This document shows positions 4,220 through 22,668 of a stretch of DNA of 32,000 nucleotides, in pieces. Below the pieces are notes generated by a model. The model did no database searches. It was not told the DNA's origin and saw nothing but the letters and a program-made list of their open reading frames with translations. The translations under genes and the position numbers were made by a program. This stretch comes from Candidatus Nanoclepta minutus. GTDB lineage: Archaea > Nanobdellota > Nanobdellia > Nanobdellales > Nanobdellaceae. Where the stretch lies: NCBI GenBank assembly GCA_003568775.1, contig MWMI01000002.1:30001-62000 (forward strand), read 5' to 3'. Position 1 is the stretch's first letter; each line of letters opens with the position of its first letter.

Positions 4220-4226
4220 CTCAATT

Positions 4227-6257: not shown

Positions 6258-6322
6258 CTATGAACTTTCTATTAAAAAAACTAACTCTTTATATGAATAC
6301 ACCGGATTTCAAGGATGGTGGA

Positions 6323-6709: not shown

Positions 6710-6714
6710 CCAAT

Positions 6715-7608
6715 CTAGATATTATGTAGACTATGGCTATAGTAGCTAACATTAAGCAACCTTGAAAATTCCCTTACAGTCACTTCTCCCTCACTTTTAT
6801 TCTTTAGATATTCAAGAACTTTTTTTGCCATTCTATAGGGCATATACCTATAGACCCTAATAACCTCCTTTTTACATTCCGGATTCTCCAAACATTCTAA
6901 GGTATCTCTTATCTTCTCTTTATTTACTCTATATGCTTTAGGTATCTTATTTCGATTAAAAGGATTTTTATATTCTATTAGGCCCAACTTCTCAAATCTT
7001 TTTAAACAAGAGTTTAATGATCCGGAAGACATATATGTTGCTCTTGCTATTTTACCAACCGATACTTCCCCTCCCTCATAAATATATTTCAATATTTCAA
7101 TGGAGTTTATTGATGGTCTCTTTCCCTCTCGCCCTGAAATTTGCCCAAATAATTCCCAAGGATCTATATCCAATTCGGCACATTTCTTAAGAATATAAGA
7201 GACAAAAGGTTTCATATATTCGCCAAAAGGAGTCAGAGTATAACCATAACTTTCTGGGGTAATTTGGACTCTTTTAAGTAAGCCTATTCTTACCATAGGT
7301 CCCCCTCCCTTTGAGTTTAGAGATACATACCCCCAATAGGTTGAAGGATCGATAGGCATTGAACCTCTATAAAGTCTCTTGTTTCTCTGAAATTCTTTGT
7401 AAGATATTCCTAAACATCTTAAAAACTCGTCAAATAATTCTATTTCATTCGTATAAACTTTACCATAACTTAAACATGTATGTAAAATGGCTCTTGGAAT
7501 TAAATTAACCGACTTAGACAGAATTTCCAACCTACTTTTATAGGATTCCTTTTTAAAATCTTCTAGAATATAATCTTTCTCAAGGTTTAGAATATCGTCT
7601 AATCCCAT
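6715..7608 (-). CDS. Multi-winged-helix DNA-binding protein (N-terminal portion of a probably disrupted gene)
   Basis: wHTH-like segments IEILKYIYEGGEVSVGKIARATYMSSGSLNSCLKRFEKLGLIEY and VLEYLKNKSEGEVTVREFSRLLNVSYYSHSLHNI*. The second is cut off in its recognition helix. Confidence 0.6.
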   Translation of the reverse strand: MGLDDILNLEKDYILEDFKKESYKSRLEILSKSVNLIPRAILHTCLSYGKVYTNEIELFDEFLRCLGISYKEFQRNKRLYRGSMPIDPSTYWGYVSLNSKGGGPMVRIGLLKRVQITPESYGYTLTPFGEYMKPFVSYILKKCAELDIDPWELFGQISGREGKRPSINSIEILKYIYEGGEVSVGKIARATYMSSGSLNSCLKRFEKLGLIEYKNPFNRNKIPKAYRVNKEKIRDTLECLENPECKKEVIRVYRYMPYRMAKKVLEYLKNKSEGEVTVREFSRLLNVSYYSHSLHNI

Positions 7609-7644
7609 TAATATACAAATAAGGTTAAGGTTTTATTATCTTAA

Positions 7645-7740
7645 CTTAGTAACAATCACTTCTATAAAGGTATAAACTTTATCTCTTTATTATCTATCTT
7701 TAGATATCCTCATAGTCCCAAGCAATTATAGGTTATTTAT
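7645..7740 (-). pseudogene. Orphan relic of a COG1373-type ATPase gene 3' end
   Basis: Aligns to 4886-4980 and more closely to relic 1089-1185. Reads IIAWDYED, then a frameshift, then YLKIDNKEIKFIPL*K*LLL, with both Trp codons of the LWKW tail changed to stops. Confidence 0.65.
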
Positions 7741-7767
7741 GTTGTATATTGATGTTACCAATATAAT

Positions 7768-9018
7768 TCATCTTAGAAGACCATAACTTCTATATAGATT
7801 TTCTTTTTCCTCACTAAGCAAACCTAACCTTATACAACTCCTTGCAACTTCAGAAGAAATAGGCCTTGGCTTTGATCTCCCCATTAACCACCTTTTTATA
7901 GTATATAATTTTATACCTAGAGATTCTGCAATCTCAGAATAACTTTTCCCCATCATTCGAAGTTCTAACGCCTGGATATACTTATCATATCTCTCAAATT
8001 GTTTTTGTAAACGTGAATATATTGCTGGAATATAAGGAAGGAGCCTGTGAACATTCACCCTATAGTATCGCCCATTTTTTGTTAGCAACTTATAACATCT
8101 TAATATATTAAGCATAAATGAAACTTCAAATGACCTCCTGAATTTTAATTTTTGCATAATCTCGCCTACCGTATAGTATTCTTTACCAGATGGATCTAAA
8201 AATACTAAAAGTATTTGAGCTAGATGTAAATCTTTACCGATAAATTCTTCAGGATGTAATACCTTCAATTTTATTTTAGAGGGGAGATAAACGTCTACTT
8301 CTATTTCTCTCGCAATTTGAATAATATCTTCAAATAACCATAATTCTTCCCCATATACTACCCATTCCCTTTTAAATAATGGAATTCTTTTATGGGTTAT
8401 ATATTTCGAAAATTCCTCACTCTTTTTAAGAAGATATAAAGAAGGTATCCTTAAATTTTTAGAGATTTGCTCAAAGATCTTTATTTCCTCATTATTAAAA
8501 AATTCTTTAAAAGCTAGATCATTTAAAATTTCGTCTATATTAGAATAACCAAGTTTTCTGTACCATTCCTCAAAAGCAGCGGAAGGATGTCTATAGGGTT
8601 CTGTTAATTTCTTAAAAATCAACCAATAGTAATTATACATAGCTGCTTTTTCTTCATTTTTAAACAAAGTTTTAGTTTCGTTTTCTATCCAACCCTTTTC
8701 TTTCATGCTAGATAAAGCCGCACCTACTCTTCTATAAGGAGGATTATGACGATATCCATAAGGTAATAATATGCACCCTTCTGTAAGCAAACTAATAAGT
8801 GAAAATAAATCTATAAAGTATATACCATCTTTTCTTCTTTTTAATGCAGAATAAAGTATACCAGCTATATGTGTATTATAAATTTCTGCACTAACCTGAG
8901 GATTTTGGGGTTTTAATTCTATAAATCTAGTAGTGGGATAATTCACGAATCTTAAGATCTCATCTAATGAAGGTTCCTTTTTAATCTTATATTTACTTGT
9001 GTATTTAACTTTAAGCAT
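7768..9018 (-). CDS. Large hypothetical protein with an internal wHTH-like segment and a C-terminal HTH
   Basis: 416 aa. C-terminal GKSYSEIAESLGIKLYTIKRWL resembles resolvase/transposase/sigma-region-4 type HTHs. YYTVGEIMQKLKFRRSFEVSFMLNILRCYKLLTKNGRYYRV is wHTH-like. No catalytic motif recognised. Confidence 0.6.
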   Translation of the reverse strand: MLKVKYTSKYKIKKEPSLDEILRFVNYPTTRFIELKPQNPQVSAEIYNTHIAGILYSALKRRKDGIYFIDLFSLISLLTEGCILLPYGYRHNPPYRRVGAALSSMKEKGWIENETKTLFKNEEKAAMYNYYWLIFKKLTEPYRHPSAAFEEWYRKLGYSNIDEILNDLAFKEFFNNEEIKIFEQISKNLRIPSLYLLKKSEEFSKYITHKRIPLFKREWVVYGEELWLFEDIIQIAREIEVDVYLPSKIKLKVLHPEEFIGKDLHLAQILLVFLDPSGKEYYTVGEIMQKLKFRRSFEVSFMLNILRCYKLLTKNGRYYRVNVHRLLPYIPAIYSRLQKQFERYDKYIQALELRMMGKSYSEIAESLGIKLYTIKRWLMGRSKPRPISSEVARSCIRLGLLSEEKENLYRSYGLLR

Positions 9019-9253
9019 GGTTTCTTATATTTATCTAAAAAATATATTTTTTACTACTCGGTTAAAGATAAATATTTTAAAGTTTTATAATAACGTTTCT
9101 TAAACTACATATTAACATAAACTCGTTAAAAATACCCTATTATAAGGATAGAAATTGATAGAGGAATTAAAGAAGGTATCTAATGAATATAAGGAAGACT
9201 ATGGGAGGTTTGAGGAACTAAAGCTTTTAATAGAGAAGACGTATATTTGAAGA

Positions 9254-9385
9254 ATGGAAACCATAGGGATAAGTAAAGAAACACTCTATACAATTATAGT
9301 TATTTTGTTGATAATTGCTGCTACAGCAGTTTGTACGTATCTTATTGAAAATACTAATCCACCTAGCTGTAAGCCATGCTGCTAA
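9254..9385 (+). CDS. Candidate 43-aa single-TM peptide with a Cys-rich tail (below the ORF-track cutoff)
   Basis: ATG...TAA encodes METIGISKETLYTIIVILLIIAATAVCTYLIENTNPPSCKPCC. A 31-codon TTG ORF (9155-9250) lies in the same frame, separated by one TGA. Confidence 0.3.
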   Translation: METIGISKETLYTIIVILLIIAATAVCTYLIENTNPPSCKPCC

Positions 9386-9773
9386 TAACAGCTGGAGATA
9401 TCGTTTATAGTAAAAGTAAGTAGATTAAGCCAAGCGCATTAGTTATACAAAAAATTTGTGTTGCATTAAGAGTATTTATTCTAACAATAGAGTATTCTAT
9501 GATACTTAATTATTTGATCCGAAATTCCTAAGAAATCTCTTTATTTTTTCAATAATATAGGAATCCTTGTAGAGTAAGAGATTCTTAATAATGTAAAATT
9601 TTAATAAAAATTACTTCTCAAATCTTTATAAAATACTCATGCTAATAACTAAGATAATACCTTTAATTTAGCATCTTCAATTCTTCAAAATACAATTAAA
9701 TTCATTATGTTTTTGGTTATAAAAATTTTTAAAGATTAATTTACTATTAATTAGTATAACATAGCGACAATTT

Positions 9774-10907
9774 TTGATGGAGGCGGAAGACTTATTTAAG
9801 TTATTTAAGTTAGCTGAAGAAGAGAAAATGGCAGTGTTATTGATTGGAAAGTATGGCACAGGAAAGAGTAGTGTTGTTTACGAGTATGGCAAAAAGAGAG
9901 CAAAAGAGTTAGAGGGGGAATTAGCAATATGGCATGAACTAAGCGAGGAAGAAAAGGAGAAAGTTATTAAAAATGCAGGAAAGTATTATGTTATTGTAGA
10001 TATAAAAGGCCCTATGATTAGTCCAGAGAACTTAATAATGCCACTCCTAGTAGATGAAGAGTTAATATGGGAAACACCGTTATGGGTTAAAGTGTTTAAT
10101 AAGGAAGAATCAGCAGGAATATTATTAATTGATAATATAGACATGGCCCCAAGTGGGCTACAGAGTACTTTATCCGAATTAATATTACAAAGGAAAATAG
10201 CTGAGGATAGTTTAGAATCAAAAAATTTATTAGTAGCAGCAGTAGGAAACGACTCAGGAAGTAATGAGTATGCAAACGAGATACCAAAACAATTATTAAA
10301 CCGTTTCATTGTTGTAAACACAGATAATATTTTATTAAATGTTGATTACTGGGTTAAATGGGCTTTACAAAATGATATAGATAAAAGAGTTATTGATTAC
10401 GTATTATACAAAAATAACCTATTTACAATGGCCAGGGAACCATTAGGACAATCAACAACCCCAAGAACACTACACATATTATCAGACATGATAAAAAATG
10501 AAAACAATATGGAATATATAGAACTTGTTAGTAAAGCATCGTTAGAAGAGCATGATGCTTTAGAATTTACAGAATTCATAAAATTATACGAAAAACTCAA
10601 AGATTTAGAGAAATATGTAAAAAATACAGAGCTATTAAACGAATTAAACGAACAAGAATTATTTATTGTTTCTATGAAAATTACAGATATGTATTTAAAC
10701 AATAAAGTAGATGTAGATAAATACTTTAACTTTATTGAGAGCGTAGCAAAGAAGAGAAGAGAATACAGCTTAACAATGTATAAATACATTAAAGATATTG
10801 TAAAGAACTCTGAAAAAACAAATATGTTAATAGAGAAGATATTACAGCATAAAGATAGTGAAATGCACAAGCTATTCAATGAGCTTCTTACTTTTTCAAA
10901 GCTATAA
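9774..10907 (+). CDS. MoxR-like AAA+ ATPase with a helical C-terminal domain
   Basis: Walker A LLIGKYGTGKSS. The Walker B region ILLIDNIDMAPSGLQSTLSELILQRKI parallels MoxR hhhDEINRAxxxxQxxLLxxMxE. NRFIVV parallels the DRF motif. ATG at 9777 is the more likely start. Matched in-frame by a CRISPR spacer (see findings). Confidence 0.75.
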   Translation: MMEAEDLFKLFKLAEEEKMAVLLIGKYGTGKSSVVYEYGKKRAKELEGELAIWHELSEEEKEKVIKNAGKYYVIVDIKGPMISPENLIMPLLVDEELIWETPLWVKVFNKEESAGILLIDNIDMAPSGLQSTLSELILQRKIAEDSLESKNLLVAAVGNDSGSNEYANEIPKQLLNRFIVVNTDNILLNVDYWVKWALQNDIDKRVIDYVLYKNNLFTMAREPLGQSTTPRTLHILSDMIKNENNMEYIELVSKASLEEHDALEFTEFIKLYEKLKDLEKYVKNTELLNELNEQELFIVSMKITDMYLNNKVDVDKYFNFIESVAKKRREYSLTMYKYIKDIVKNSEKTNMLIEKILQHKDSEMHKLFNELLTFSKL

Positions 10908-10909
10908 AA

Positions 10910-10937
10910 TTTTATTTTTTTAAAATTTTTAATTTTT
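10910..10937 (+). terminator. Oligo-T tracts downstream of the ATPase gene (archaeal-type terminator candidate)
   Basis: TTTTATTTTTTT followed by AAAATTTTTAATTTTT directly after the TAA at 10905-10907. Confidence 0.3.
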
Positions 10938-10942
10938 GACGG

Positions 10943-13900
10943 CTTTCAATATTTCTAATTCTTCTGAAACATGTATCTCCAGCAACTGCATTAAGGTATA
11001 TAAGAAAATTCTTTCAATATTTCTAATTCTTCTGAAACACTCAGCAGTGATAAATGAAAATCTGCAAATCTAACTTTTCCTTTCAATATTTCTAATTCTT
11101 CTGAAACGTCTTTTATACCACATATAACGATTTTGATTATGAAAGTTTCAAAACTTTCAATATTTCTAATTCTTCTGAAACCTATAGTATATAGCTCCTG
11201 TATATTCTCTACCTAAATTCTTTCAATATTTCTAATTCTTCTGAAACAAAAGCAATATCCAAATGCAACGATACATTACCCAATCAGCTTTCAATATTTC
11301 TAATTCTTCTGAAACTTAATCTAGCCCAAAGCATCTTATTTAACAACCAAATTAACTTTCAATATTTCTAATTCTTCTGAAACAAACATTAGAGACAAAC
11401 CAGTATAACATAAGATTCTTACACTTTCAATATTTCTAATTCTTCTGAAACCTAACAGAACTATAGCTACAACGCTCGCCAATACTATCAACTTTCAATA
11501 TTTCTAATTCTTCTGAAACTTAGGATATTTAGTAATTCTTTAGCTTTTTGTTCTGCATTCTTTCAATATTTCTAATTCTTCTGAAACCTCATTAAGGCAC
11601 ACTATTTAGATATAATCCTAACAATATCTCTCAATATTTCTAATTCTTCTGAAACGTTTTAGTAGAAAGAGCAGATCCTCCAGAGGGGAAGTTATTACTT
11701 AACTTTCAATATTTCTAATTCTTCTGAAACTCTTAGATATTAACTCTTCTACTTGTCCATTATCTAACAACTTTCAATATTTCTAATTCTTCTGAAACGA
11801 ATAATGTTTTTTGTGTTTTCTTTTTGCATATATGCATTACTTTCAATATTTCTAATTCTTCTGAAACCTGAAAGAAAAGCTTTTGAGTCTGTTAGAAAGT
11901 TTTATGATGATGTGCTTTCAATATTTCTAATTCTTCTGAAACTAGCATGGGAGAGGTTGAATATAACCTGCTCGTAAGAATTCTTTCAATATTTCTAATT
12001 CTTCTGAAACAACTCTTTATATTCTACCTTTACTATTTCAGTTCTTATTTTCTTTCAATATTTCTAATTCTTCTGAAACGCAAACCATAGAAAATCCGAG
12101 ATAATCTTCTTTTTCATCATTCTTTCAATATTTCTAATTCTTCTGAAACATTAGATTATCAGTGAGCAAGGTTATTAGCGATTTGTTTTATAGCTTTCAA
12201 TATTTCTAATTCTTCTGAAACACTTAAACAAAGTGGATATAATACGACTATTGTATGAACTACTTTCAATATTTCTAATTCTTCTGAAACGAAAAGATAA
12301 TAATAAAAAACGATTTACCAGAATTTATAACTTTCAATATTTCTAATTCTTCTGAAACTGTTTACGAGTATGGAAAAAGAAGGGCTATGGAATTAGGGCT
12401 TTCAATATTTCTAATTCTTCTGAAACGCTCATGAGATGGCTTTAGTTGAGGCTCACATAAGAAAAGTCTTTCAATATTTCTAATTCTTCTGAAACACCTT
12501 CTCAAACCCAGCCGTCTCAACCTTCACAGCCTCCACACTTTCAATATTTCTAATTCTTCTGAAACATTCGGTTGGATATCCTCTAAGCTTATATTATGTT
12601 GAAAATCTTTCAATATTTCTAATTCTTCTGAAACTTAAATGAGAGGTTTGAAATAACAATAGATACAAGATACAACAAAATAGAAACTTTCAATATTTCT
12701 AATTCTTCTGAAACTTATTAAGATATACAGAGTTTATTATACTTTGCCTAACGGCCAACAAGACTTTCAATATTTCTAATTCTTCTGAAACTGGGCCAAA
12801 CTTGCATTTAGGCTAACATTTGCCTTAATATCAACTTTCAATATTTCTAATTCTTCTGAAACCTTTAGCAGGTTCTGAAAAAGCTTTAACTCCAGCCATT
12901 AGCTTTCAATATTTCTAATTCTTCTGAAACCTTTTATGGCATCAATTATAGTTTTAGATGTCTTATAGAACTTTCAATATTTCTAATTCTTCTGAAACAG
13001 GTTAGGTATAATAGATGAACAAACCTTAAGGACATATTTATCTCTTTCAATATTTCTAATTCTTCTGAAACCTTATATTGGTTCTGGTGGTTCTCTCTCT
13101 GTTTCAAATGGACTTTCAATATTTCTAATTCTTCTGAAACCATGTAGATATAGCAGACGCAGAATATATAACATTCTCTACTTTCAATATTTCTAATTCT
13201 TCTGAAACGAAGAGGAATTAAGAAAAGTTTTAGCATACGAAGTGTATAAGCTTTCAATATTTCTAATTCTTCTGAAACATGCTTCAATAAAAACATTATA
13301 AAACATGTATGCATATATTTCTTTCAATATTTCTAATTCTTCTGAAACGAATGGGATAGGTATCTATTAGGGAAGTTTTTTGCACTTTCAATATTTCTAA
13401 TTCTTCTGAAACCATTATAATAGATTCTCTTTTCCCTAAAGCTTGATGCCACTTTCAATATTTCTAATTCTTCTGAAACGGTTGTGGGTATGCCTATAAC
13501 TAAAGAGGACTTAAAAGAAACTTTCAATATTTCTAATTCTTCTGAAACTTAATGAAGTTTATAACTTATTAAGTGATATTAGAGAAGTTAACTTTCAATA
13601 TTTCTAATTCTTCTGAAACGTAGAAATCATAATTATCTATCACCATATTACCGTATTCCCTTTCAATATTTCTAATTCTTCTGAAACAATGATGTTCGGG
13701 CTCTTTACTTGATAAGAGTGTCTACCTTTCAATATTTCTAATTCTTCTGAAACACAACAGCAGACATTAACAGAATTGGAAAGACAGCATCTACTTTCAA
13801 TATTTCTAATTCTTCTGAAACCACATGTAGAATATCATTTTATTTGAATTTTGTTTCATGACTTTCAATATTTCTAATTCTTCTGAAACGCTCAAGTCTT

Positions 13901-13955
13901 ACCGTCTCCGCCATGTTTCTAATTTGGCTTTCAATATTTCTAATTCTTCTGAAAC
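10943..13955 (-). CRISPR. CRISPR array: 44 repeats of 28 nt and 43 spacers of 36-52 nt
   Basis: The plus-strand repeat is CTTTCAATATTTCTAATTCTTCTGAAAC, which is GTTTCAGAAGAATTAGAAATATTGAAAG on the minus strand. All repeat starts were located by hand and 44x28 plus the spacer sum equals 3013 nt. There is one variant repeat (11628-11655, T to C at 11630). The strand is inferred from the ATTGAAAG 3' end and the cas2-proximal leader. Confidence 0.97.
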
Positions 13956-14243
13956 CTTAGTCTAATCGCATCTTTTATGACCTATATTATTCAAAACAAG
14001 CTTAAAAACTTTATAAAGTTCTGAATGCAGATAGAAAACAAAGGTTATATAAACCCCTGCAGATATTTAAAAATATTTTCTATAAACTTCTTATGACCTG
14101 ATACTTTTAGTTATATTCGTTAAAAGCCTAAATCTAGCCTTAAATTTCTTATAACACAACAGAATCCTATTATATAAATATAAAAATGTATAGATAACTG
14201 ATCTATCCGAAACAATCTATACATCTTAGTAGCTATTTTGCAA
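13956..14243 (-). promoter_or_regulatory. Putative CRISPR leader with candidate TATA boxes
   Basis: A 288-nt AT-rich non-coding stretch between cas2 and the repeat at 13928-13955. TATA-like TTTATAAA at 14010-14017 and TTTATATAA (minus strand, 14045-14053). Motif TTATGACCT occurs twice (13975-13983 and 14091-14099). Confidence 0.55.
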
Positions 14244-14507
14244 TTAGTATATATCGAATTCTTTCTTGACACCAATCTCTATTCTATCCTTCAAATATCC
14301 CTGACCTGGCAGAACATAAATAATAATAGAATCCTCATCTTTATTTATCATCTTCTCAAGCATCTTTTTTATATAATACAGAGTACTTTCTCTTATCTCT
14401 CCTTCAAAAACAGAGTTCTGGACATGATTTAAATACTTTTTCAAAAACTCTCTAACCTCATTTTGTCTTTCAATGGAAATATCATAGACTATTATCGCAT
14501 AAACCAT
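14244..14507 (-). CDS. cas2: CRISPR-associated endoribonuclease Cas2
   Basis: 87 aa. The N-terminal MVYAIIVYDIS is the beta1 strand with the conserved Asp. Ferredoxin-like length and pattern. Adjacent to the leader and to cas1. Confidence 0.9.
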   Translation of the reverse strand: MVYAIIVYDISIERQNEVREFLKKYLNHVQNSVFEGEIRESTLYYIKKMLEKMINKDEDSIIIYVLPGQGYLKDRIEIGVKKEFDIY

Positions 14508-14553
14508 TCTTGTCTAATTATTTAAAAGGTATTAAAGTTAAAATTGTAGGAAT

Positions 14554-15564
14554 ATGAAAAACATCTATATTTTATCGATCGGAAAAGTATATAGAAAGAG
14601 TAATAATCTCTACTTTATTGATAAGGATAAGAACAAAAGAGTTATACCAATAGAAGGTATAAATGCTATATACATAATGAATAAGGTTAGCTTAACATCA
14701 AATGCTATTCAAATGATACTAAATAAAGGAGTTCCTGTTCATTTCTTTAAAGAAGATTCAAAAATAGGTACATTTTATTATTTAGGATCTCTTTTACCTA
14801 AACAGAAGAAACCTTCTGGAAAAGTTCATATAGAGCAAGTTAAGGCTTATATAAACGTTGAAAAGAGGTCCGAGATAGCTTTAGAGATAGTAGACGCAAT
14901 AAGGTATAACATGATAAAAGTTATTGAAAAGTATAGAGAAGTTTACGATTATACAAAAACCTTAAGGAATCTGGATGTTAGGAAAGAATTTGAACAAAAA
15001 ATGACGGATTGGAAGGATGCAACGAACGTTATAAGGGGTATAGAATCAAATATCTGGGTTATATTTTATGAAGCTTTGGATAAGATATTGAAGACTTATA
15101 AGTTAGAGAGGAGGACTAGAAGACCTCCTAAAAACGAAGCAAATACTATCTTATCCTTCTCAAATGCTTTGTTATATGCTACTGTACTAAATGAGATATA
15201 TAAAACGCATTTGGATCCCACGGTTGGGTTTTTACATGAACCTTATGAAAAGGGAAGGTTTTCCCTAGTTTTAGATTTAGCAGAACCCTTTAAACCTATT
15301 ATAAGCTGTAGAATACTAATTTGGTTAATAAATCAAGGGATAGTAAAGCCAGAATACTTTAAGAAGGATCTGATGGGTGTTATGTTAAATGAAAACGGAA
15401 AAAGAGTTGTAATAAAGGAATTTGAAAGTAGGATAAGAGAAACCATAAAGATAAAAGGAAAGGGTAGGAAATCTATGCTGATTTTTATAAGAAAACAGGC
15501 TTATAATTTGGAAAAGGCTTTGGTAGAGGATACAAAATTTAAGGCTTTTAGATTAGTGTATTAG
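14554..15564 (+). CDS. cas1: CRISPR-associated integrase Cas1
   Basis: 336 aa. GIESNIWVIFYEAL and VGFLHEPYEKGRFSLVLDLAEPFKP match the conserved Cas1 Glu/His/Asp region. Divergent from cas2 across 46 nt. Confidence 0.9.
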   Translation: MKNIYILSIGKVYRKSNNLYFIDKDKNKRVIPIEGINAIYIMNKVSLTSNAIQMILNKGVPVHFFKEDSKIGTFYYLGSLLPKQKKPSGKVHIEQVKAYINVEKRSEIALEIVDAIRYNMIKVIEKYREVYDYTKTLRNLDVRKEFEQKMTDWKDATNVIRGIESNIWVIFYEALDKILKTYKLERRTRRPPKNEANTILSFSNALLYATVLNEIYKTHLDPTVGFLHEPYEKGRFSLVLDLAEPFKPIISCRILIWLINQGIVKPEYFKKDLMGVMLNENGKRVVIKEFESRIRETIKIKGKGRKSMLIFIRKQAYNLEKALVEDTKFKAFRLVY

Positions 15565-15588
15565 TCTTATCCTATGAAGGTTCTAAGT

Positions 15589-16245
15589 TTATAGGAGAAT
15601 AATCTCCTTACTATTTATCTTAAGAACCTTTACTTCTTCTTTAAATTTTAAAATACCTTTAGCCACTATAAACCTTTCTAAAGCATTTTCTACTATTATA
15701 TCCGCTCTACTGTTATAAATGTCTATCAGATCAGATGGAACTAACTGATAATTTGGTATATTTATTTCATTTTTCTCTTCAATAGTACCTTCTTTGGATT
15801 CCAATTTCCAACTGTAAGCTAGATAATCATTTTGACCAGCAAAGGGATAGTAATTTATAGGATTTGGGTCAATTTCTAAATTAACTTCTTTTGGAACTAG
15901 ATAAAATATATATTTCGAATTAACTATTAGTTCTGTATTTGATGGAGGTCGTTCAAAACCTTTGCTTTTAATCTGGATTATTCGCTGTATCTCTATAGTT
16001 TTCTCGAAAGTTAATAATTCGGATCCTACTAGGAAGTTCTTTAATATATTTTCTTCTTCTTTTGATTTGTTTCTTTTTTTGATTTTCCAAAAAGAAATTG
16101 GTTCTTTAAAAAAAGCGTTAAAAATTGAAAATATAGCTTTTTTTCTTGGAATTAAGAAAGTTTTTCTAGTCTTAACTGTATATGGGATCTTAAAAAATGC
16201 CAGGGGAAATTCTATTTCTAAAATATATGCCCTTTCTTTATTCAT
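15589..16245 (-). CDS. cas5: Cas5 (type I Cascade subunit)
   Basis: 218 aa. The N-terminus AYILEIEFPLAFFKIPYTVKTRKTFLIPRKKAIFSIFNAFF is typical of the Cas5 RAMP N-terminus. Overlaps the cas7 stop by 8 nt. Confidence 0.8.
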   Translation of the reverse strand: MNKERAYILEIEFPLAFFKIPYTVKTRKTFLIPRKKAIFSIFNAFFKEPISFWKIKKRNKSKEEENILKNFLVGSELLTFEKTIEIQRIIQIKSKGFERPPSNTELIVNSKYIFYLVPKEVNLEIDPNPINYYPFAGQNDYLAYSWKLESKEGTIEEKNEINIPNYQLVPSDLIDIYNSRADIIVENALERFIVAKGILKFKEEVKVLKINSKEIILL

Positions 16246-17410
16246 AGAATTTTAAATAATAGTTAAAGTTATTTAAGTCTAAATTTTTTAGTATATCTTC
16301 TACTAAGTTTTTTATTTCTGACGGTTTTTTGACAATTATTTTATCTCTATTATCAACCTTTAGATTTCCTACATAATCTATAACATATAGCTTCTCTTCT
16401 CCTTCTAACATATTGGCAAATTCTCTTAATTTCTCTATATCTAGTTGATAACCCTCGCTGAATCTTTCTACAACTTTTTCTATGATTTTTCCGTCTTTTT
16501 CTTCCTTAAAGATTTCATATTCTCTGTCTTTTTGATATTTTATGTTAACAAATGCTGATAAAGGTTTGATAGAATTTGTTAAAGCAACTACAACATATTT
16601 ATAATTTCCTTGATTTAATTGATCGGTAGATCTAGGTAGGACGAATTTTCCTGCTAATATTATTTCTAATAGAGCTCTTAATCTTTTCTTTCTTTCTTCC
16701 TCTTTTAGTATAACCATTTTTTCGTTGCTTCTATTTTGATCTACTTTGTCAGAATTTTTAACTTCCCCCAATATGTTTTTTAAATTTCTATCTTCATCTT
16801 CTTTATCCACGACTTCTTCTTTGTGAAATACTCCGATATAATTGTATATAATTCCATAAAATCTTCCTAAGAATTTTGCCTGTTCTATCTCAAAAGGTAT
16901 AGGATTTTCCCTTTTTGGAAATCTACCAGCAAATTCCGTTGTTACTGGTATAGGAAAGAAGCTTATTAAATAGGACATTTCTACAGGTGCTTTTCTTTTC
17001 CATGCACCACCCTTTTCTCCTTGACTTTTAGCTTTAGTAACCATATAACCGAATAGATCTTGATCTATATAATCTAAGAAGTTTCCACTATCTCCCTCTT
17101 GTTTTTTACCTATTTGCGTATCGCTAAGCGTTTCGAAGGGGTCTGTTTTAAATCCATAATCTCTTTCTAGAGCCAATCTTATCCCTTTTTTTATGGCTCT
17201 AGAGCTTACATACGGATAAATACCCTCTCTAGTTACAAACTTTTTAATAGTTATCCTTGTACCTACAGATTCGTCTGCATTTACGTTTCCCTCTACCTCA
17301 GTTACCACAACAAATTGTATAAATCTAGGATTTTTAACCTCTACCGATTCTTTATATTCTTGATTCATCATTTTGGTTCTCTTGGACTTTCTTTTTAGCC
17401 TTCGGAACAT
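16238..17410 (-). CDS. cas7: Cas7 (Csa2/DevR-like Cascade backbone subunit)
   Basis: VVTEVEGNVNADESVGTRITIKK...YPYVSSRAIKKGIRLALE is typical of the archaeal Cas7/Csa2 N-terminus. The start may be the internal ATG at 17371 or 17368, which reduces the overlap with cas8. Confidence 0.85.
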   Translation of the reverse strand: MFRRLKRKSKRTKMMNQEYKESVEVKNPRFIQFVVVTEVEGNVNADESVGTRITIKKFVTREGIYPYVSSRAIKKGIRLALERDYGFKTDPFETLSDTQIGKKQEGDSGNFLDYIDQDLFGYMVTKAKSQGEKGGAWKRKAPVEMSYLISFFPIPVTTEFAGRFPKRENPIPFEIEQAKFLGRFYGIIYNYIGVFHKEEVVDKEDEDRNLKNILGEVKNSDKVDQNRSNEKMVILKEEERKKRLRALLEIILAGKFVLPRSTDQLNQGNYKYVVVALTNSIKPLSAFVNIKYQKDREYEIFKEEKDGKIIEKVVERFSEGYQLDIEKLREFANMLEGEEKLYVIDYVGNLKVDNRDKIIVKKPSEIKNLVEDILKNLDLNNFNYYLKFYE

Positions 17411-18713
17411 GTGATAGCAAACCCAAGATAATTGAGGCTTTAATTAAATAAAATTTTGATAGATCGGAAGTTCTTAAATCATATATTAACTTACCAAATT
17501 TTTCAGATAAATCTTCTGATATATCTAAACCCCTAGACTTTAACCATACGATGTCCTTTTCGAACGTTTCCGCAAAGTATTCTGGTAAATCTTCGTTTCT
17601 TAAATCTTTTGCAAATCTATCTACTAATTTTTCAGTATCCGAAGGATCTTGAAATAATTCATAGATTTTAGAACCTAATAGTTGTCCTAAATTAAAATAC
17701 TCATCTAACTGATAATTTGTCATTTCTTTCATAAATTTAATTATGAAATACTTATTTAAAAACTTAATTGTTTTTCCAATTTGTTGAGAGCTTATTTCTA
17801 CCAATATTTTTACCAGATTATTTATAAAATTACTGTCTAATACTTGCTTAGCTAAAAGATAATAAGAGAATATATCTGCTATTTTTTCTACTGCTTTTTG
17901 TTGATTATATTTTTTTAAGATATTATGTAGTCTAATAAGAAGTTCTAAAATATAATAAAGATTTGTATTTTTTGGATTTATTTTACCCTCTCCTAGTAGC
18001 TCATAGATCTTCAAAAAGCCAGCTTCTGGTATAACAAATAAAGAACCTTCCATTTTTTGTTTTTTCCATACTATAACCTCACTAGTTCTTTTTATTTTAT
18101 ACTTTAGATCGTACAGTACTATAAAAATATTTATTAAAAAGATTAAAGTATTCCAATAGTCTCTATTTTTAAAAAACTTAAGCGTTGAGAGCTTTTTAAT
18201 AGTATCTGAAGGATATAGATTGTCGAATAAGTCATATATGTTTATATCTCCTTGTTGCAAGTATAAGTTGGGAACATAAAATACATATAAACCTCTATTT
18301 ATTAATACAGGAAATCCTTTTTCTAAAATATCCATCATCTCTTTTTTAGACTTATCTAAATCATAAATCTCATGCTCTATTTCATATGGATTTCTATTAA
18401 GGAATTTATCTTGGGTAATTATAGATGGTACTATATAGCTATCGAATTTATTTGATGAAAATTTATCAAAAATGGCTATTTTAAAAACCTCATCTAATTC
18501 CATCTGAGATAAAATTGATAAATGCTCTTCTTTTATTAACGGATATTTATTCTTATCTAGCGGAATATTAATATTAGGGTTTTTTCTTTTAATTATTTCT
18601 CCAATTTTCATTCTAACATCTCCTTTAACATTATGTATATTGCCCAACCAGTTTACAATATACTCCTTGTAGGCAGTATGCTTCGTAGACTTTCCAAAAT
18701 ATATATGACCCAT
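17352..18713 (-). CDS. cas8: Putative Cas8 large subunit (family not assignable)
   Basis: 453 aa, first gene of the cas8-cas7-cas5 unit. Called by position and size only. No motif recognised. Confidence 0.6.
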   Translation of the reverse strand: MGHIYFGKSTKHTAYKEYIVNWLGNIHNVKGDVRMKIGEIIKRKNPNINIPLDKNKYPLIKEEHLSILSQMELDEVFKIAIFDKFSSNKFDSYIVPSIITQDKFLNRNPYEIEHEIYDLDKSKKEMMDILEKGFPVLINRGLYVFYVPNLYLQQGDINIYDLFDNLYPSDTIKKLSTLKFFKNRDYWNTLIFLINIFIVLYDLKYKIKRTSEVIVWKKQKMEGSLFVIPEAGFLKIYELLGEGKINPKNTNLYYILELLIRLHNILKKYNQQKAVEKIADIFSYYLLAKQVLDSNFINNLVKILVEISSQQIGKTIKFLNKYFIIKFMKEMTNYQLDEYFNLGQLLGSKIYELFQDPSDTEKLVDRFAKDLRNEDLPEYFAETFEKDIVWLKSRGLDISEDLSEKFGKLIYDLRTSDLSKFYLIKASIILGLLSHVPKAKKKVQENQNDESRI

Positions 18714-18797
18714 ATTAATAAAGCATGTGTTGAAAATATTTTTAAGTTAATGATATTTAAAAATATTAAATAAATTAAATATTATCTTAAAGATATT

Positions 18798-21224
18798 ATG
18801 CATCGTATTTTTCTCGATATTAATAAAGCAAATAGTCATCAGAATAAATCTCTCAGTCATCATATAATAGAAATAATTGAATTTTCCGAAACTTTTTATA
18901 GGCTAGGCTATAGATTTGATAAGGATCTTCTTAGATTATTAGCAATATATCACGATTTAGGGAAGTGCTACTATCTTTGGCAAAAATACAGTATTCAAAA
19001 GAATATTAAGCTAGTAAAACATTCCGGTTTATCAGCATTTATTACTTATTTGATACTTGTAAAAAATAAAATGGAATTAGGAAATATCTTAAAAGTTCCT
19101 AATCTAAATCTAAACTTAGAATTAGGAACAGATGAAATAAAATACCTGATTTATCTTATCTTAGTTCATCATAGCGATTTAAAAAGGTTGGATGCAAATG
19201 CTATTGATTCTAAATTTAATTTAGGTAGCCCTTTTGAAAAAAATATCAATCAAGTAAAAGATCTTATGGCTATTTTACCTAACACAGATGAAAGTGAATT
19301 TGAAGAGTTTAAAAATTATATCATTTCATTTAATCCTTCAGATCTAGATCTTAATACTAAATACATTAACACATATGCGGCTTTTAAAATTGCTGATAGG
19401 CTTTCTGGTAGTTTTCATAGGAATTTAAGTAAAGAAGAAATTCCAAAGATACTGTATAAATTTGGAATAACCAATATAGATTTTAATCTAAATGAGGAGG
19501 TTATTAGAAATTTGTTAAGCAATAAGGAGATATCCGGGAAGGTTGATGAAAATAGATTAAGAGAGCAAATTAAATTTTTAGAAAATGATATTAAGATACT
19601 ATTAGCTCCAACGGGTTTCGGAAAGACTGTGTTCTCTATATTTAAGGGAATTACGAATAAAAAAATGTTAATAGCGTTACCTACGATAACCGCTATTAAA
19701 CAATTCCTAAAAAAGACTGGGGCAATAATAAATGAAATTGGTTATTTCTCTAATAATATTGGTACTTATTTTTATTTCTATAATCCATTCAAGACAGAAG
19801 AAGAAGATGACAACCTAATACTAAATGAATACTTTTTATCTCGTTATCTTCTAAAACCGATAATGTTAACTACTGTAGACCAATTACTGTTAACTTATCT
19901 ACAATCTAAGGAATATTACATAAAAAAATTTGCGTTACAGAATAGGATATTAATAGTTGATGAAATTCATCTATTAACACCAAAAATGTTGTATTTCCTT
20001 TTACAATTTCTAAAGGAGTACAGAAGTATATTTAGGGATTTCGTCTTAATGTCTGCAACTTTTCCAGAATTTTTAATAGATATAATTAGATCAGAATTGG
20101 AGATAAAAGATAGTAACATCATAAGGCTTTATAACTATTACCCGAAAAATAGAATCTGGATAGAATTTTTAAATGATGATTTTGAAATAAAAAAAGAGAA
20201 AAAAGAAAAACTGTTTGATGATATATATAAAAAATTGAAGGATATAACTAAAGATAAAAAGCCTAAAATAATAGTTTTATTTAATACTGTAATTAATGCT
20301 CAAGAATTCTATAAATATTTAAAAGAAAAAGGAGAAAATTGGGATATATTGCTATTTCATTCTAGGTACATATATAAACATAGAAAAGAAATAGAGAAAA
20401 AATTATTAAAGATTAGTAAAGCCGGGAGATTAGATAAACCTTTTATCCTAATAGCTACGCAAGTAGTTGAGGTATCCTTAGACATAGATCTTGATTACCT
20501 AATAACTGAGTCCGCTCCATTGCAGGAGTTAATACAGAGATTTGGTAGAGTATTTAGAAATAGAGATCAGAACTTACCCCCAAAAGAGCCCAACATTTAT
20601 ATATTTGGATTTTTAGAAGAGTCTAATAGAATATATGATAAAGAGCTGGTAAAGGAAAGTATTGACATTATTAAAGATTTTAGAAATATTGTTGATGAAG
20701 AAAAACTAGTTAAAAAATTAAATGAAAGCGAGATATATAAGAATACCTATTTGAAAGAATTTGAGGATGCTAGAAATAAATATGACGAATTTGTTGATGA
20801 ATTATTAAATAAATATGCTAACAGATTTTATTACATATTCGTAGAAGAAGATGAGGAGACCTTGAAAAAAATATCAAAACTGTTAAATATAAGAGATTCT
20901 ATAAACTCTTTAGTGTTCGTTAACCCAGAAGATTTAGATAAAAAAGAAGCTAAAAAATATAATAAACTACTAAAAGATTTAGAAGAGAGTAGGAAGTCGA
21001 GAGATTTCGTTAAGTTTTTTAGATCTAAACTATATCTGAGAGAATTTTTATTACCCATACCATTTTATTATATTCTACCGTTGTTAGATGTAGATAACGA
21101 GCTAGTTAGAAACGAGAAAATACCAGTAATACCACCAAAGGTTTATAGTAAGGAATTCGGGATTGATGTAAAAAAGTTAAAAGAAATTTTAGAGTCGAAA
21201 ATATTTGAGGAAATAATAATGTAA
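18798..21224 (+). CDS. cas3: Cas3 with N-terminal HD nuclease fused to an SF2 helicase
   Basis: HD region HHIIE...LLAIYHDLGK...LVHHSD. Helicase motif I LLAPTGFGKT, motif II VDEIH, motif III MSATFP, and later QRFGRVFR. 808 aa. Confidence 0.9.
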   Translation: MHRIFLDINKANSHQNKSLSHHIIEIIEFSETFYRLGYRFDKDLLRLLAIYHDLGKCYYLWQKYSIQKNIKLVKHSGLSAFITYLILVKNKMELGNILKVPNLNLNLELGTDEIKYLIYLILVHHSDLKRLDANAIDSKFNLGSPFEKNINQVKDLMAILPNTDESEFEEFKNYIISFNPSDLDLNTKYINTYAAFKIADRLSGSFHRNLSKEEIPKILYKFGITNIDFNLNEEVIRNLLSNKEISGKVDENRLREQIKFLENDIKILLAPTGFGKTVFSIFKGITNKKMLIALPTITAIKQFLKKTGAIINEIGYFSNNIGTYFYFYNPFKTEEEDDNLILNEYFLSRYLLKPIMLTTVDQLLLTYLQSKEYYIKKFALQNRILIVDEIHLLTPKMLYFLLQFLKEYRSIFRDFVLMSATFPEFLIDIIRSELEIKDSNIIRLYNYYPKNRIWIEFLNDDFEIKKEKKEKLFDDIYKKLKDITKDKKPKIIVLFNTVINAQEFYKYLKEKGENWDILLFHSRYIYKHRKEIEKKLLKISKAGRLDKPFILIATQVVEVSLDIDLDYLITESAPLQELIQRFGRVFRNRDQNLPPKEPNIYIFGFLEESNRIYDKELVKESIDIIKDFRNIVDEEKLVKKLNESEIYKNTYLKEFEDARNKYDEFVDELLNKYANRFYYIFVEEDEETLKKISKLLNIRDSINSLVFVNPEDLDKKEAKKYNKLLKDLEESRKSRDFVKFFRSKLYLREFLLPIPFYYILPLLDVDNELVRNEKIPVIPPKVYSKEFGIDVKKLKEILESKIFEEIIM

Positions 21225-21745
21225 TGAAATTCGAAAGCTATTCAGGGGGAATTTATATCTATTACTATTTCGTATGCAAAAGAAAACTATGGTTTTATGC
21301 AAACAAAATTACTATGGAAGATACTTCGGATCTGGTTCAAATAGGAAAATACATAGAATTATTCTATAAAGAAGAGAAAAAGCATGATAGACAAATAATA
21401 ATAGATAATACCATATCTCCAGATGCTATAGAAAATAAAGGAGATTTCTTATTGGTTTTAGAGGTCAAGAAATCAGAATCATTTAAAGAAGCTGCTTTAT
21501 GGCAATTAAAGTATTATTTATGGTATCTAAAAAACAAAGGATTAAACGTAAGGGGAAAGTTGGTTATACCTGAGGAAAAGAAAAAAGAATATATAGAGTT
21601 GACTGAAGAGGATGAAAGAAGGATAAAAGAAATATTGAATGAAATAAAGGAAATAATTAGACAACCAAGACCTCCAAAGGTTGTCAAAAAACCCTATTGT
21701 AAGTATTGTTCATATAGGATGCTTTGCTGGGAAGATGAACTCTAA
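21224..21745 (+). CDS. cas4: Cas4 (RecB-like nuclease with a 4-Cys cluster)
   Basis: Cys at FVCKRKLW plus C-terminal CKYCSYRMLC. Nuclease motif DFLLVLEVKK. The start overlaps the cas3 stop (TAATG). Confidence 0.9.
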   Translation: MKFESYSGGIYIYYYFVCKRKLWFYANKITMEDTSDLVQIGKYIELFYKEEKKHDRQIIIDNTISPDAIENKGDFLLVLEVKKSESFKEAALWQLKYYLWYLKNKGLNVRGKLVIPEEKKKEYIELTEEDERRIKEILNEIKEIIRQPRPPKVVKKPYCKYCSYRMLCWEDEL

Positions 21746-21780
21746 TCAATCTTATATTAATTTTCAAAAATTAAATATAA

Positions 21781-22668
21781 ATGAGATTGCTCCTAGAAGT
21801 AGTTTCCTTACAAGATGCAAAGTACAACCTAATCCATAATTACATAATCCAGGGTTTTATATACAACTTATTAAGGGATACAGAATTCGCCTGGTTGCAT
21901 TCTTATAAAGGTTTGAAGTTCTTTAACTTCTCAAACATATTCCCAATAAAGGATTTTAAAACAGATGAGAAATACAAGCTAATAATTTCCTCTCCAAATA
22001 AAAAGCTCATCCAAGTATTATACAAAAGGTTAAAGGAAAATAAGGAAATAAAGTTAGGTAGCTTAGAATTTAAAATAACTAACCTAAAGACTTTTGATAT
22101 AAAGTTAAGCTTTCCGTGGGAAACGTCAACACCCATTATACTAAGAAAGGAAAAAGAGGTATACTTATCAGATGGTTTCAAAATATTCATAGTCAGACTA
22201 AAAGATATGAACATACTTAAGGAGTTGGATTTTGAAAAGAAAAAGATAACAATAAATACTAATGAAGTAAAAGAGATAAAGGAAGAAGATTTAAAGTATT
22301 TAGATAAGAGTAAGTTTAAAATAATAAGGATAAAGGATGTTTACTTTAACTTTAAAAAGGATCATGGATTATTTGAATGGTTAGAAGAATTGAAAAGAAA
22401 CAGTATAATAAAATATAGGTCTTTCACTGGTTCTAAATTCGAATTAGAGGATAACTTATTCGATGAATTAGAGTTTAGGAAAACAGTTTCAATAAAAGTT
22501 AGGATAAAGGAGAGGGGAGATATAGTATACATAGGAAGTCATTGGAAGAAGCTAAACGTTTTAAGGAAATTGGATAATGAAGAGAGAAGGTTTTACAAGT
22601 TTTTATTAGACACGGGATTAGGCATATTGAATTCTTTAGGTTTTGGTTTTGTAAATCCAAGGGATTAA
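21781..22668 (+). CDS. cas6: Cas6 crRNA-processing endoribonuclease
   Basis: 295 aa. The C-terminal glycine-rich loop DTGLGILNSLGFGFVNP is the Cas6 hallmark. Last gene of the cas3-cas4-cas6 unit. Confidence 0.8.
   Translation: MRLLLEVVSLQDAKYNLIHNYIIQGFIYNLLRDTEFAWLHSYKGLKFFNFSNIFPIKDFKTDEKYKLIISSPNKKLIQVLYKRLKENKEIKLGSLEFKITNLKTFDIKLSFPWETSTPIILRKEKEVYLSDGFKIFIVRLKDMNILKELDFEKKKITINTNEVKEIKEEDLKYLDKSKFKIIRIKDVYFNFKKDHGLFEWLEELKRNSIIKYRSFTGSKFELEDNLFDELEFRKTVSIKVRIKERGDIVYIGSHWKKLNVLRKLDNEERRFYKFLLDTGLGILNSLGFGFVNPRD

What the first reader, a model, noticed from the sequence alone, without database searches (positions are those of the whole stretch)
12359..12398. CRISPR spacer is an in-frame, wobble-diverged match to the ATPase gene next to the array
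Spacer TGTTTACGAGTATGGAAAAAGAAGGGCTATGGAATTAGGG aligns without gaps to 9875-9914 (TGTTTACGAGTATGGCAAAAAGAGAGCAAAAGAGTTAGAG) inside ORF 9774-10907. Identity is 31/40 and the first 15 nt are identical. Six of the nine mismatches are at third codon positions of the ORF frame, and four codons differ only synonymously. The encoded peptides are VYEYGKRRAMELG (spacer) and VYEYGKKRAKELE (gene). This is the pattern expected for a protospacer taken from a diverged homologue of the gene, such as a virus, plasmid or paralogue, rather than chance AT-rich similarity. In the inferred crRNA orientation the chromosomal site is flanked by 5'-CCC (complement of GGG at 9915-9917), a CCN-type PAM like those known for crenarchaeal type I systems. 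However, five mismatches fall within the 13 PAM-proximal nt (positions 2, 7, 10, 11 and 13), which should spare the chromosome.
Basis: partly seen in the sequence, partly recalled or inferred. Interest (0 to 1): 0.8.

Follow-up and report, generated by a model that had tools for sequence, protein, structure and literature searches.

The report
CRISPR spacer from a mobile-element ATPase homologue
A CRISPR spacer in the tiny symbiotic archaeon Candidatus Nanoclepta minutus resembles the gene beside the array because that gene is a leftover of a mobile element (virus or plasmid) family the array targets, which is normal CRISPR biology, although the leftover's exact join to the array is unusual.

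Summary
Spacer 12359-12398 matches 9875-9914 at 31/40, in frame, with 6 of 9 mismatches at third codon positions. No shuffled spacer comes close, and only 3 of 5925 natural AT-rich 40-mers reach 31/40.

- The window is Candidatus Nanoclepta minutus, with a type I-B cas locus.
- The ATPase family is tiny: 14 proteins in 5.8 billion.
- Its closest member (82% aa) lies on a 16.8-kb metagenome contig of 24 co-oriented, almost entirely unannotatable genes. This looks like a mobile genetic element (MGE), either virus or plasmid.
- That contig carries perfect protospacers for two other spacers of this array (40/40 and 43/43, flanks CCA and CCT).
- It matches the focal spacer at 35/40 inside its ATPase gene.
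- No exact protospacer was found anywhere.
- The chromosomal site has a CCC flank but mismatches at positions 2 and 7, so self-targeting is unlikely.

New finding: the chromosomal ATPase is itself an MGE relic. Homology to the MGE covers only this gene and stops exactly at the first repeat. A second, related chromosomal contig shows the same arrangement with a different truncation point. This suggests recombination between spacers and their protospacers, which is inferred and not shown.

The parts
12359..12398 (-). Focal spacer. It is number 21 from the ATPase (trailer) end and number 23 from the leader. The crRNA is inferred to be the reverse complement.
   Evidence: It matches 31/40 to 9875-9914 and 35/40 to L001 2790-2829, which lies in the ATPase homologue of the mobile element.
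9875..9917 (+). Chromosomal partial match (9875-9914) plus the GGG flank (9915-9917), which reads CCC in crRNA orientation.
   Evidence: There are 9 mismatches, including crRNA positions 2 and 7.
9777..10907 (+). Intact 376-aa MoxR-class AAA+ ATPase gene (NCBI BXU00_01425). It is interpreted as a relic of a mobile element. Its Walker B motif reads DN instead of DE.
   Evidence: 100% identity to the Candidatus Nanoclepta minutus protein, and only 14 homologues exist; weak AAA_5 hit. AlphaFold2 pLDDT 89, best fold matches NorQ and CbbQ. E120N; dN/dS 0.10-0.19.
9722..9776 (+). Upstream region conserved with the mobile element and with L003. It ends in the element's invariant start context AATTTTTGATGG.
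10908..10942 (+). Intergenic cassette of the element plus the first 4 nt of the lost VWA gene (ATGG has become ACGG), directly abutting the first repeat. This is the 'pseudo-spacer' junction.
   Evidence: Homology to L001 ends at 10942, which corresponds to L001 3858. L001 continues with TGG, a PAM-compatible flank.
10943..13955 (-). CRISPR array with 44 repeats and 43 spacers. The reverse complement of the repeat ends in ATTGAAAG, the expected 8-nt 5' handle.
   Evidence: The orientation is inferred from the handle, from the CCN flank lying 5' of the protospacers, and from the position of the cas genes and the putative leader.
12291..12330 (-). Spacer adjacent to the focal one. It matches the mobile element perfectly.
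   Evidence: 40/40 to L001 5434-5473, 3' flank TGG, which gives PAM CCA.
13549..13591 (-). Spacer with a perfect match in the VWA gene of the element.
   Evidence: 43/43 to L001 4921-4963, flank AGG, which gives PAM CCT; 33/43 to L015 with the AGG flank conserved.
13413..13451 (-). Spacer with a partial match in the VWA gene of the element.
   Evidence: 34/39 to L001 3976-4014 and 30/39 to L002. Neither relative has a CCN flank at this site.
13956..14243 (-). Putative leader: an AT-rich non-coding stretch between the last repeat and cas2.
   Evidence: Inferred, not tested.
14244..22668 (.). Type I-B cas locus: cas2 14244-14507(-), cas1b 14554-15564(+), cas5 15589-16245(-), cas7 16238-17410(-), putative cas8 17352-18713(-), cas3 (HD plus helicase) 18798-21224(+), cas4 21224-21745(+), cas6 21781-22668(+).
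   Evidence: Cas1b TIGR03641 scores 339.5 against a cut-off of 304.1. Type I-B Cas7 TIGR02585 scores 110 against 72.75. cas8 is assigned by position only and has no family hit.

Best explanation
The spacer is an ordinary immune memory of the type I-B CRISPR-Cas system of Candidatus Nanoclepta minutus. It was acquired from the MoxR-type ATPase gene of a mobile genetic element (MGE) of the family represented by metagenome contig L001. The actual source was a variant that is not in public data.

The spacer resembles the gene next to the array only because that gene is a chromosomal relic of the same MGE family. The two sequences are diverged homologues, which explains the in-frame, wobble-biased mismatches. 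The chromosomal copy has a CCC flank, but its 9 mismatches include seed positions 2 and 7, so it should not be cleaved.

Shown: the match, its non-random character, the closer MGE homologue, the perfect protospacers on that MGE with CCN flanks, the type I-B locus, and the relic nature and exact junction of the ATPase.

Inferred: the direction of crRNA transcription, immunity in vivo, and the way the relic came to abut the array. For the last point I propose homologous recombination between a spacer and its protospacer. Either an incoming circular MGE integrated at a spacer, or a new spacer recombined with a resident integrated copy and deleted the DNA in between.
For: Match and controls.

Identity of the organism and rarity of the family.

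The MGE contig has 24 co-oriented genes. Only the ATPase and the DUF2201_N/VWA partner are recognisable, as PHROG viral families 1297 and 1314. GC is 25%.

Four of 43 spacers hit the contig, two of them perfectly, with NGG 3' flanks. GG occurs at only 2.6% of positions.

Relic evidence:
- Window/L001 homology is limited to 9722-10942 and ends at the first repeat.
- In the other contexts that extend past the ATPase (L001, L002, L004, L005, L007-L012, L015) a VWA gene lies downstream, directly or, in L015, after one inserted gene.
- L003 is a chromosomal contig carrying an AGOG glycosylase gene. It has the ATPase, then about 100 nt of a decayed VWA 5' end (start codon lost, 1-nt deletion), then the same 28-nt repeat.
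- The L003 junction is followed by AGG in L002, and the window junction by TGG in L001.
- The trailer-most spacer of L003 matches the VWA 3' end of L001 at 37/43 with a TGG flank.
- The window ATPase groups with the MGE copy and not with the L003 copy: neighbour-joining (NJ) bootstrap 92.5% against 3.5%.

Precedents from the literature: a CCN PAM in Pyrococcus furiosus (PMC5737086) and spacer/protospacer recombination (Varble et al. 2019, as summarised in PMC8616872).
Against: - No exact protospacer was found, so the true source is unknown. It could be a paralogue or provirus elsewhere in the N. minutus genome, which I could not read.
- On L001 the focal site has a TCT flank, not CCN, and mismatches at crRNA positions 1 and 7.
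- Whether L001 is a virus or a plasmid is unresolved. There are no hallmark genes and no terminal repeats. Structure prediction of one conserved MGE protein failed.
- For the recombination idea, only one junction per locus is visible.
- No degenerate repeats lie upstream of the ATPase.
- The PAM coincidence at the junctions is post hoc (P about 0.004), and NGG is common after the MGE's ATGG start context (6 of 16 cassettes).
- An assembly error cannot be excluded without reads, although two independent assemblies agree and the L003 relic is decayed.
Confidence: 0.85

Rival explanations
1. Chance similarity between two AT-rich, lysine- and glutamate-rich coding-like sequences.
For: With natural AT-rich 40-mers, 3 of 5925 reach >=31/40 somewhere in the window, so such matches are not impossible.
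Against: - No shuffled spacer comes close.
- The match is in frame and wobble-biased.
- A homologue of the same gene matches even better, at 35/40, at the homologous codons.
- That homologue sits on a contig with two perfect protospacers of the same array.
Confidence: 0.01
2. The spacer was taken from the chromosomal ATPase itself (self-acquisition). The two copies then drifted apart, and the gene escaped autoimmunity by mutation.
For: The chromosomal site has a CCC flank. Self-derived spacers are known in Pyrococcus furiosus (PMC5737086).
Against: - Divergence at the site (22.5%) equals the gene-wide window/L001 divergence (about 19%), so there is no local excess of escape mutations.
- Reaching 9/40 differences would take far longer than arrays usually persist.
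- The spacer agrees with L001 at 6 of the 9 differences.
- The neighbouring spacer is a perfect hit to the same MGE.
Confidence: 0.04
3. The protospacer lies in a paralogous ATPase elsewhere in the N. minutus genome, for example an integrated provirus. That would make this a true self-targeting or provirus-controlling spacer.
For: - Only 32 kb of the genome is visible.
- One Nanopusillaceae metagenome-assembled genome (MAG) carries two copies of the ATPase-VWA pair (L011 and L012).
- A second MGE-like gene lies in the window at 1604-2332.
Against: - The exact spacer, with the array context excluded, was not found in genome contigs. The N. minutus genome may not be in that collection, because one search did not return it.
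- The protein search found no family member with the peptide RRAMELG.
Confidence: 0.08
4. The crRNA regulates the neighbouring ATPase gene, since it is antisense to the ATPase mRNA and partly complementary to it.
For: The inferred crRNA is complementary to the sense strand of the gene. The array and the gene are convergent.
Against: - The locus is type I-B, which targets DNA, and no type III genes are in the window.
- Nine mismatches including the seed argue against binding.
- The better match to an MGE explains the sequence without invoking regulation.
Confidence: 0.02

Closest known systems
Type I-B CRISPR-Cas adaptive immunity with a 5'-CCN PAM, as characterised for spacer uptake in Pyrococcus furiosus (PMC5737086)
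   Same: - A repeat whose transcript would carry the ATTGAAAG 5' handle.
- A cas1, cas2, cas4 adaptation module and a cas3, cas5, cas7, cas8, cas6 effector set.
- Spacers of about 40 nt.
- Protospacers preceded by CCN.
   Different: - The host is a DPANN nanoarchaeote (an ultra-small symbiotic archaeon) with a very small genome.
- Spacer length is unusually variable, 36-52 nt.
- Nothing here has been tested experimentally.
Recombination between CRISPR spacers and phage protospacers (Varble et al. 2019, Nat Microbiol, staphylococci; summarised in PMC8616872)
   Same: DNA of the mobile element is contiguous with a CRISPR repeat. The boundary is the point where a PAM-flanked protospacer would end.
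   Different: - The known case is a laboratory observation of phage-CRISPR hybrids that drive transduction.
- Here it is a fixed chromosomal relic at the trailer end of an archaeal array.
- It is seen in two lineages with different break points.
- It is only inferred from sequence.
MoxR-class AAA+ ATPase with a VWA partner (NorQ/NorD, CbbQ/CbbO), and the ATPase/VWA gene pair of large phages (PHROG 1297 and 1314)
   Same: - Predicted fold: Foldseek E 1.7e-7 to NorQ, target-normalised TM-score (TMt) 0.64-0.67.
- Walker A motif present.
- The adjacent DUF2201_N/VWA gene is present in the MGE copies.
   Different: - The chromosomal copy has lost the VWA partner.
- It has Asn instead of the Walker B Glu.
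- It has a long helical C-terminal extension that NorQ lacks.
- The Pfam AAA_5 score is just under the cut-off.
Self-targeting spacers and CRISPR autoimmunity
   Same: A spacer resembles a gene of its own chromosome, and a PAM-like flank is present.
   Different: Identity is only 31/40, with seed mismatches. The true target is a homologue on an MGE.

Membership tests
Type I-B CRISPR-Cas locus | Repeat-spacer array with regular spacing | tested here: met
   44 repeats of 28 nt and 43 unique spacers.
Type I-B CRISPR-Cas locus | Subtype-specific Cas proteins above curated cut-offs | tested here: met
   Cas1b TIGR03641 scores 339.5 against 304.1. Type I-B Cas7 TIGR02585 scores 110.1 against 72.75. 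Cas3 is a fused HD plus helicase protein. Cas4, Cas6 and Cas2 are present. Cas8b was not recognised by any model.
Type I-B CRISPR-Cas locus | Protospacers in foreign DNA with a conserved 5' PAM | tested here: met
   Two perfect protospacers on L001 have CCA and CCT flanks. L015 keeps the AGG flank. The L003 spacer hit has a TGG flank. GG background frequency is 2.6%.
Type I-B CRISPR-Cas locus | crRNA processing and interference activity | not testable with these tools
   Needs small-RNA sequencing and interference assays.
Spacer with an identified protospacer | Exact or near-exact match (3 mismatches or fewer) in a foreign element | tested here: not met
   The best match is 35/40, on L001. There were no exact hits in viral, metagenome or genome contigs or in the phage records.
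Self-targeting spacer (autoimmunity) | Near-perfect match to the own chromosome with a functional PAM and an intact seed | tested here: not met
   The match is 31/40, with mismatches at crRNA positions 2 and 7. A PAM-like CCC is present. Only the 32-kb window was searched.
MoxR-class AAA+ ATPase | AAA+ fold of the MoxR clade | tested here: met
   AlphaFold2 pLDDT is 89. The top Foldseek hits are NorQ (E 1.7e-7) and CbbQ.
MoxR-class AAA+ ATPase | Pfam AAA_5 above the gathering score | tested here: inconclusive
   21.8 bits against a cut-off of 22. The L001 homologue matches PHROG 1297 'ATPase' at 1e-39.
MoxR-class AAA+ ATPase | Walker A GxxGxGK[ST] and Walker B hhhhDE | tested here: not met
   Walker A (GKYGTGKS) is present. 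Walker B reads ILLIDN in the window copy and FIDD in L003, whereas all 11 other homologues have DE.
MoxR-class AAA+ ATPase | Adjacent VWA-domain partner gene | tested here: not met
   The partner is present next to the other homologues examined whose contigs extend past the ATPase. In the window only ACGG of its start remains before the first repeat.
Spacer/protospacer recombination product | MGE DNA joined to a repeat exactly at a PAM-adjacent protospacer boundary | tested here: inconclusive
   Both junctions (window and L003) fall where an MGE relative has NGG. The post hoc P is about 0.004, using the GG frequency. The actual donor sequences are unknown.
Spacer/protospacer recombination product | Reciprocal second junction, or repeats on the other side of the inserted DNA | tested here: not met
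   No repeat-like sequence (19 of 28 nt or better) lies upstream of the ATPase in the window or in L003. L002 begins with a partial repeat fused to ATPase codon 6, but that may be an assembly chimera.

The most novel reading that the evidence does not exclude
Spacer/protospacer recombination may have fused fragments of one MGE family to the trailer end of nanoarchaeal CRISPR arrays more than once. The retained ATPase is intact, under purifying selection, stripped of its VWA partner, and changed at the Walker B glutamate in both lineages (E to N and E to D). It may therefore have been kept as a hydrolysis-deficient, dominant-negative copy that poisons the hexameric ATPase of incoming elements. 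That would be an innate decoy sitting beside the adaptive system. In addition, the terminal pseudo-spacer could still give a crRNA against the intergenic cassette that the element repeats before most of its genes.
Probability: 0.08. Interest if true: 0.8.

Novelty: new member of a known kind. Interest (0 to 1): 0.48.

Why it matters
It links a cultivated DPANN nanoarchaeote to a previously unannotated mobile-element family through four CRISPR spacers and a CCN PAM. Few such host-element links exist for these organisms.

It also explains an apparent self-match without invoking autoimmunity. A gene beside a CRISPR array can be a fossil of the very element the array fights.

If the precise relic/repeat junctions reflect spacer-protospacer recombination, they would be natural archaeal evidence for a process so far shown mainly in laboratory staphylococcal phage systems. 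That process bears on how arrays, and the DNA next to them, are rearranged and moved.

Tried and rejected
- Exact-spacer scans found nothing in IMG/VR, the metagenome contigs or the GTDB genomes. The last two used a pattern built to exclude the array itself.
- BLASTN of the whole array against GenBank phages found nothing.
- A wobble-degenerate pattern for the spacer peptide found nothing in IMG/VR.
- The repeat is absent from IMG/VR.
- The ATPase has no relatives in IMG/VR. In GenBank phages it has only distant MoxR-like hits of under 33% identity.
- The more distant ATPase loci L004-L012 carry no spacer matches and no CRISPR arrays.
- I tried to decide between virus and plasmid. Apart from the ATPase and VWA genes, every L001 protein tested lacks a significant Pfam or PHROG hit. 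PDB sequence searches were empty.
- AlphaFold2 of the conserved MGE protein P0015 gave pLDDT 58 and no meaningful fold match. The rebuilt 16,781-nt contig has no terminal repeats.
- Rfam found nothing in 9000-14600.
- The N. minutus contig is not in the encoding-contig index, so I could not extend the window.
- The JGI sample identifiers do not occur in the paper library, and the species description paper is not held.
- The idea that both array-adjacent ATPases are significantly enriched in changes at invariant residues was rejected. The counts (4 and 2 unique deviations) are within the range of the other members. One shared column is expected by chance about one time in three.
- The test for selective retention of the ATPase against the decayed VWA stub in L003 is inconclusive, because it rests on a single indel.
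Full report
**1. The observation**

The array occupies 10943-13955. It has 44 copies of a 28-nt repeat (CTTTCAATATTTCTAATTCTTCTGAAAC) and 43 unique spacers of 36-52 nt. Spacer 12359-12398 aligns without gaps to 9875-9914 at 31/40, and the first 15 nt are identical. The match lies in frame with ORF 9774/9777-10907. Six of the nine mismatches are at third codon positions, and four codons differ only synonymously. The peptides are VYEYGKRRAMELG and VYEYGKKRAKELE.

**2. Chance**

- None of 1720 shuffled spacers exceeded 72.5% identity to the window outside the array.
- 2000 shuffles of the focal spacer gave at most 28/40.
- Natural AT-rich sequence is a fairer null, so I also used real 40-mers from related low-GC loci. 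Of these, 3 of 5925 reach 31/40, which means about 0.02 such hits are expected for 43 spacers.
- No other real spacer exceeds 28/40 in the window.

**3. Setting**

The ATPase is 100% identical to a hypothetical protein of Candidatus Nanoclepta minutus. To the right of the array lie a putative leader and a full type I-B cas set: cas2, cas1b, cas5, cas7, a probable cas8, a fused HD-helicase cas3, cas4 and cas6. The reverse complement of the repeat ends in ATTGAAAG. The crRNAs are therefore most likely transcribed from the minus strand, starting at the cas side. This makes the ATPase end the trailer. The orientation is inferred.

**4. Where the spacer came from**

The ATPase family is very small, with 14 proteins in 5.8 billion. 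The closest member, P0002, is 82% identical and has VYEYGKRRAKELG at the spacer position.

P0002 lies on a 16,781-nt JGI contig (L001 plus L013) with these features:
- 24 tightly packed genes, all on one strand, at 25% GC.
- Only the ATPase and the next gene (DUF2201_N plus VWA) match any Pfam or PHROG family at significant scores.
- Both of those match phage protein families, PHROG 1297 and 1314.

Four of the 43 spacers hit this contig:
- 12291-12330 at 40/40.
- 13549-13591 at 43/43.
- The focal spacer at 35/40, inside the ATPase homologue.
- 13413-13451 at 34/39.

The two perfect protospacers are followed by TGG and AGG, which read CCA and CCT in crRNA orientation. GG occurs at only 2.6% of positions. 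At 6 of the 9 positions where the spacer and the chromosome differ, L001 agrees with the spacer. The focal spacer and its perfect-match neighbour are adjacent in the array, which fits acquisition from one element.

No exact protospacer was found in any collection, so the true donor is an unsampled variant. On L001 itself the focal site has a TCT flank and mismatches at crRNA positions 1 and 7.

**5. The chromosomal site**

It has a CCC flank, but its mismatches include crRNA positions 2, 7, 10, 11 and 13. From what is established about seed requirements in type I systems (my own knowledge, not tested here), it should escape interference. No other spacer matches the window, so there is no sign of self-priming.

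**6. What the ATPase gene is**

Its predicted structure is confident (pLDDT 89). It is most similar to NorQ and CbbQ, which are MoxR-class AAA+ proteins that work with VWA partners.

- In the other loci that extend past the ATPase, a DUF2201_N/VWA gene lies downstream, directly or (in L015) after one inserted gene.
- In the window, homology to L001 covers only 9722-10942: the gene, its short upstream region and the intergenic cassette. It stops at the first repeat. Only ACGG remains of the ATGG that begins the VWA gene.
- A second contig, L003, comes from another metagenome and carries an archaeal AGOG glycosylase gene. It has a 72%-identical ATPase, then about 100 nt of the VWA 5' end with a lost start codon and a 1-nt deletion, then the same 28-nt repeat.

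Two independent assemblies therefore show an MGE relic joined to this array type, cut at different points.

**7. How the relic came to abut the array (inferred)**

- Both junctions fall where an MGE relative has NGG immediately downstream: TGG in L001 and AGG in L002.
- The trailer-most spacer of L003 is a 37/43 match to the VWA 3' end, again with a TGG flank.
- The window ATPase groups with the MGE copy rather than with L003: NJ bootstrap 92.5% against 3.5%.

I read this as recombination between spacers and their protospacers. Either an incoming circular element integrated at a spacer, or a new spacer recombined with a resident copy and deleted the DNA between them. The second route would also remove a self-target. 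Spacer/protospacer recombination has a laboratory precedent (Varble et al. 2019, cited in PMC8616872).

Weak points:
- Only one junction per locus is visible.
- No repeat remnants lie upstream.
- The PAM statistic is post hoc.
- NGG is common after the element's ATGG starts.

I put this part at roughly 0.45.

**8. State of the relic**

The ORF is intact, and pairwise dN/dS is 0.10-0.19. The Walker B glutamate, invariant in the 11 other homologues, is Asn in the window and Asp in L003. This overlap is not statistically unusual, and the time since capture is unknown. Decay in progress and a retained, altered function both remain possible.

**9. Verdict**

Mechanistically it is ordinary CRISPR immunity: a spacer from a diverged MGE homologue of a chromosomal relic gene. 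Two things add value. One is the host link to a new nanoarchaeal element family. The other is the precise relic/array junction seen in two lineages.

Noticed in passing
L001 (JGI 3300005801 Ga0079640_1000435), upstream of 16 gene starts between 1212 and 12259: Sixteen consecutive genes (starts 1212-12259) are preceded by TTTTTGATG (AATTTTTGATG in most), and several by an almost identical cassette of about 38 nt (TTAATTTTTTAAATTTTAAAATTTTAAATTTTTGATGG). The spacing is very regular. The window ATPase keeps the AATTTTTGATGG part. The cassette may be a promoter plus start context, and it is also a multi-copy target or recombination substrate.
   Followed up: partly
window 10132-10134 (codon 120 of the ATPase); L003 ATPase, same column: The Walker B catalytic Glu is invariant in the 11 other homologues. 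It is Asn in the window copy and Asp in the other array-adjacent copy. It is the only column where both depart from an otherwise invariant residue, but the overlap is not statistically significant.
   Followed up: partly
L002 1-24 (JGI 3300020567 Ga0213465_1064035): The contig starts with a partial copy of the same CRISPR repeat, with one mismatch, fused directly to codon 6 of an ATPase homologue that is followed by an intact VWA gene. It is either an assembly walk from a spacer into the element or a real left junction of an integration.
   Followed up: partly
window 1604-2332 (+): This 242-aa ORF with no family hit is 31% identical over 226 aa (E 4e-22) to L001 gene 11665-12252. It is a second gene shared between the chromosome and the element, lying 8 kb from the ATPase.
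   Followed up: no
window 9019-9773: About 750 nt of AT-rich sequence between the HTH gene and the ATPase holds no ORF of 80 aa or more. It has no Rfam hit, and only its last 50-80 nt are shared with L001 and L003.
   Followed up: no
window 11628-11655: This is the only variant repeat in the array (CTCTCAAT instead of CTTTCAAT). Spacer lengths are unusually variable, at 36-52 nt.
   Followed up: no
L012 and L011 (Nanopusillaceae archaeon MAG KM4331-08); L010 (labelled Candidatus Paceibacter): One nanoarchaeal MAG carries two copies of the ATPase-VWA pair, on contigs with very different coverage (81x and 19x). L012 also has a homologue of MGE protein P0015. An 8.5-kb contig with the pair is binned in a bacterial CPR genome, which is probably a mis-binning.
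   Followed up: partly
L014 and L015 (JGI 3300020567): These are further diverged fragments of the same element family, from the same sample as L002 and L003. L015 has an extra gene between the ATPase and the VWA gene, and L014 carries a LAGLIDADG gene. The family is diverse within one site.
   Followed up: partly
window 17352-17410: The putative cas8 ORF (17352-18713) and cas7 (16238-17410) overlap by 59 nt as listed. The cas8 candidate matches no Pfam or NCBIfam model.
   Followed up: no
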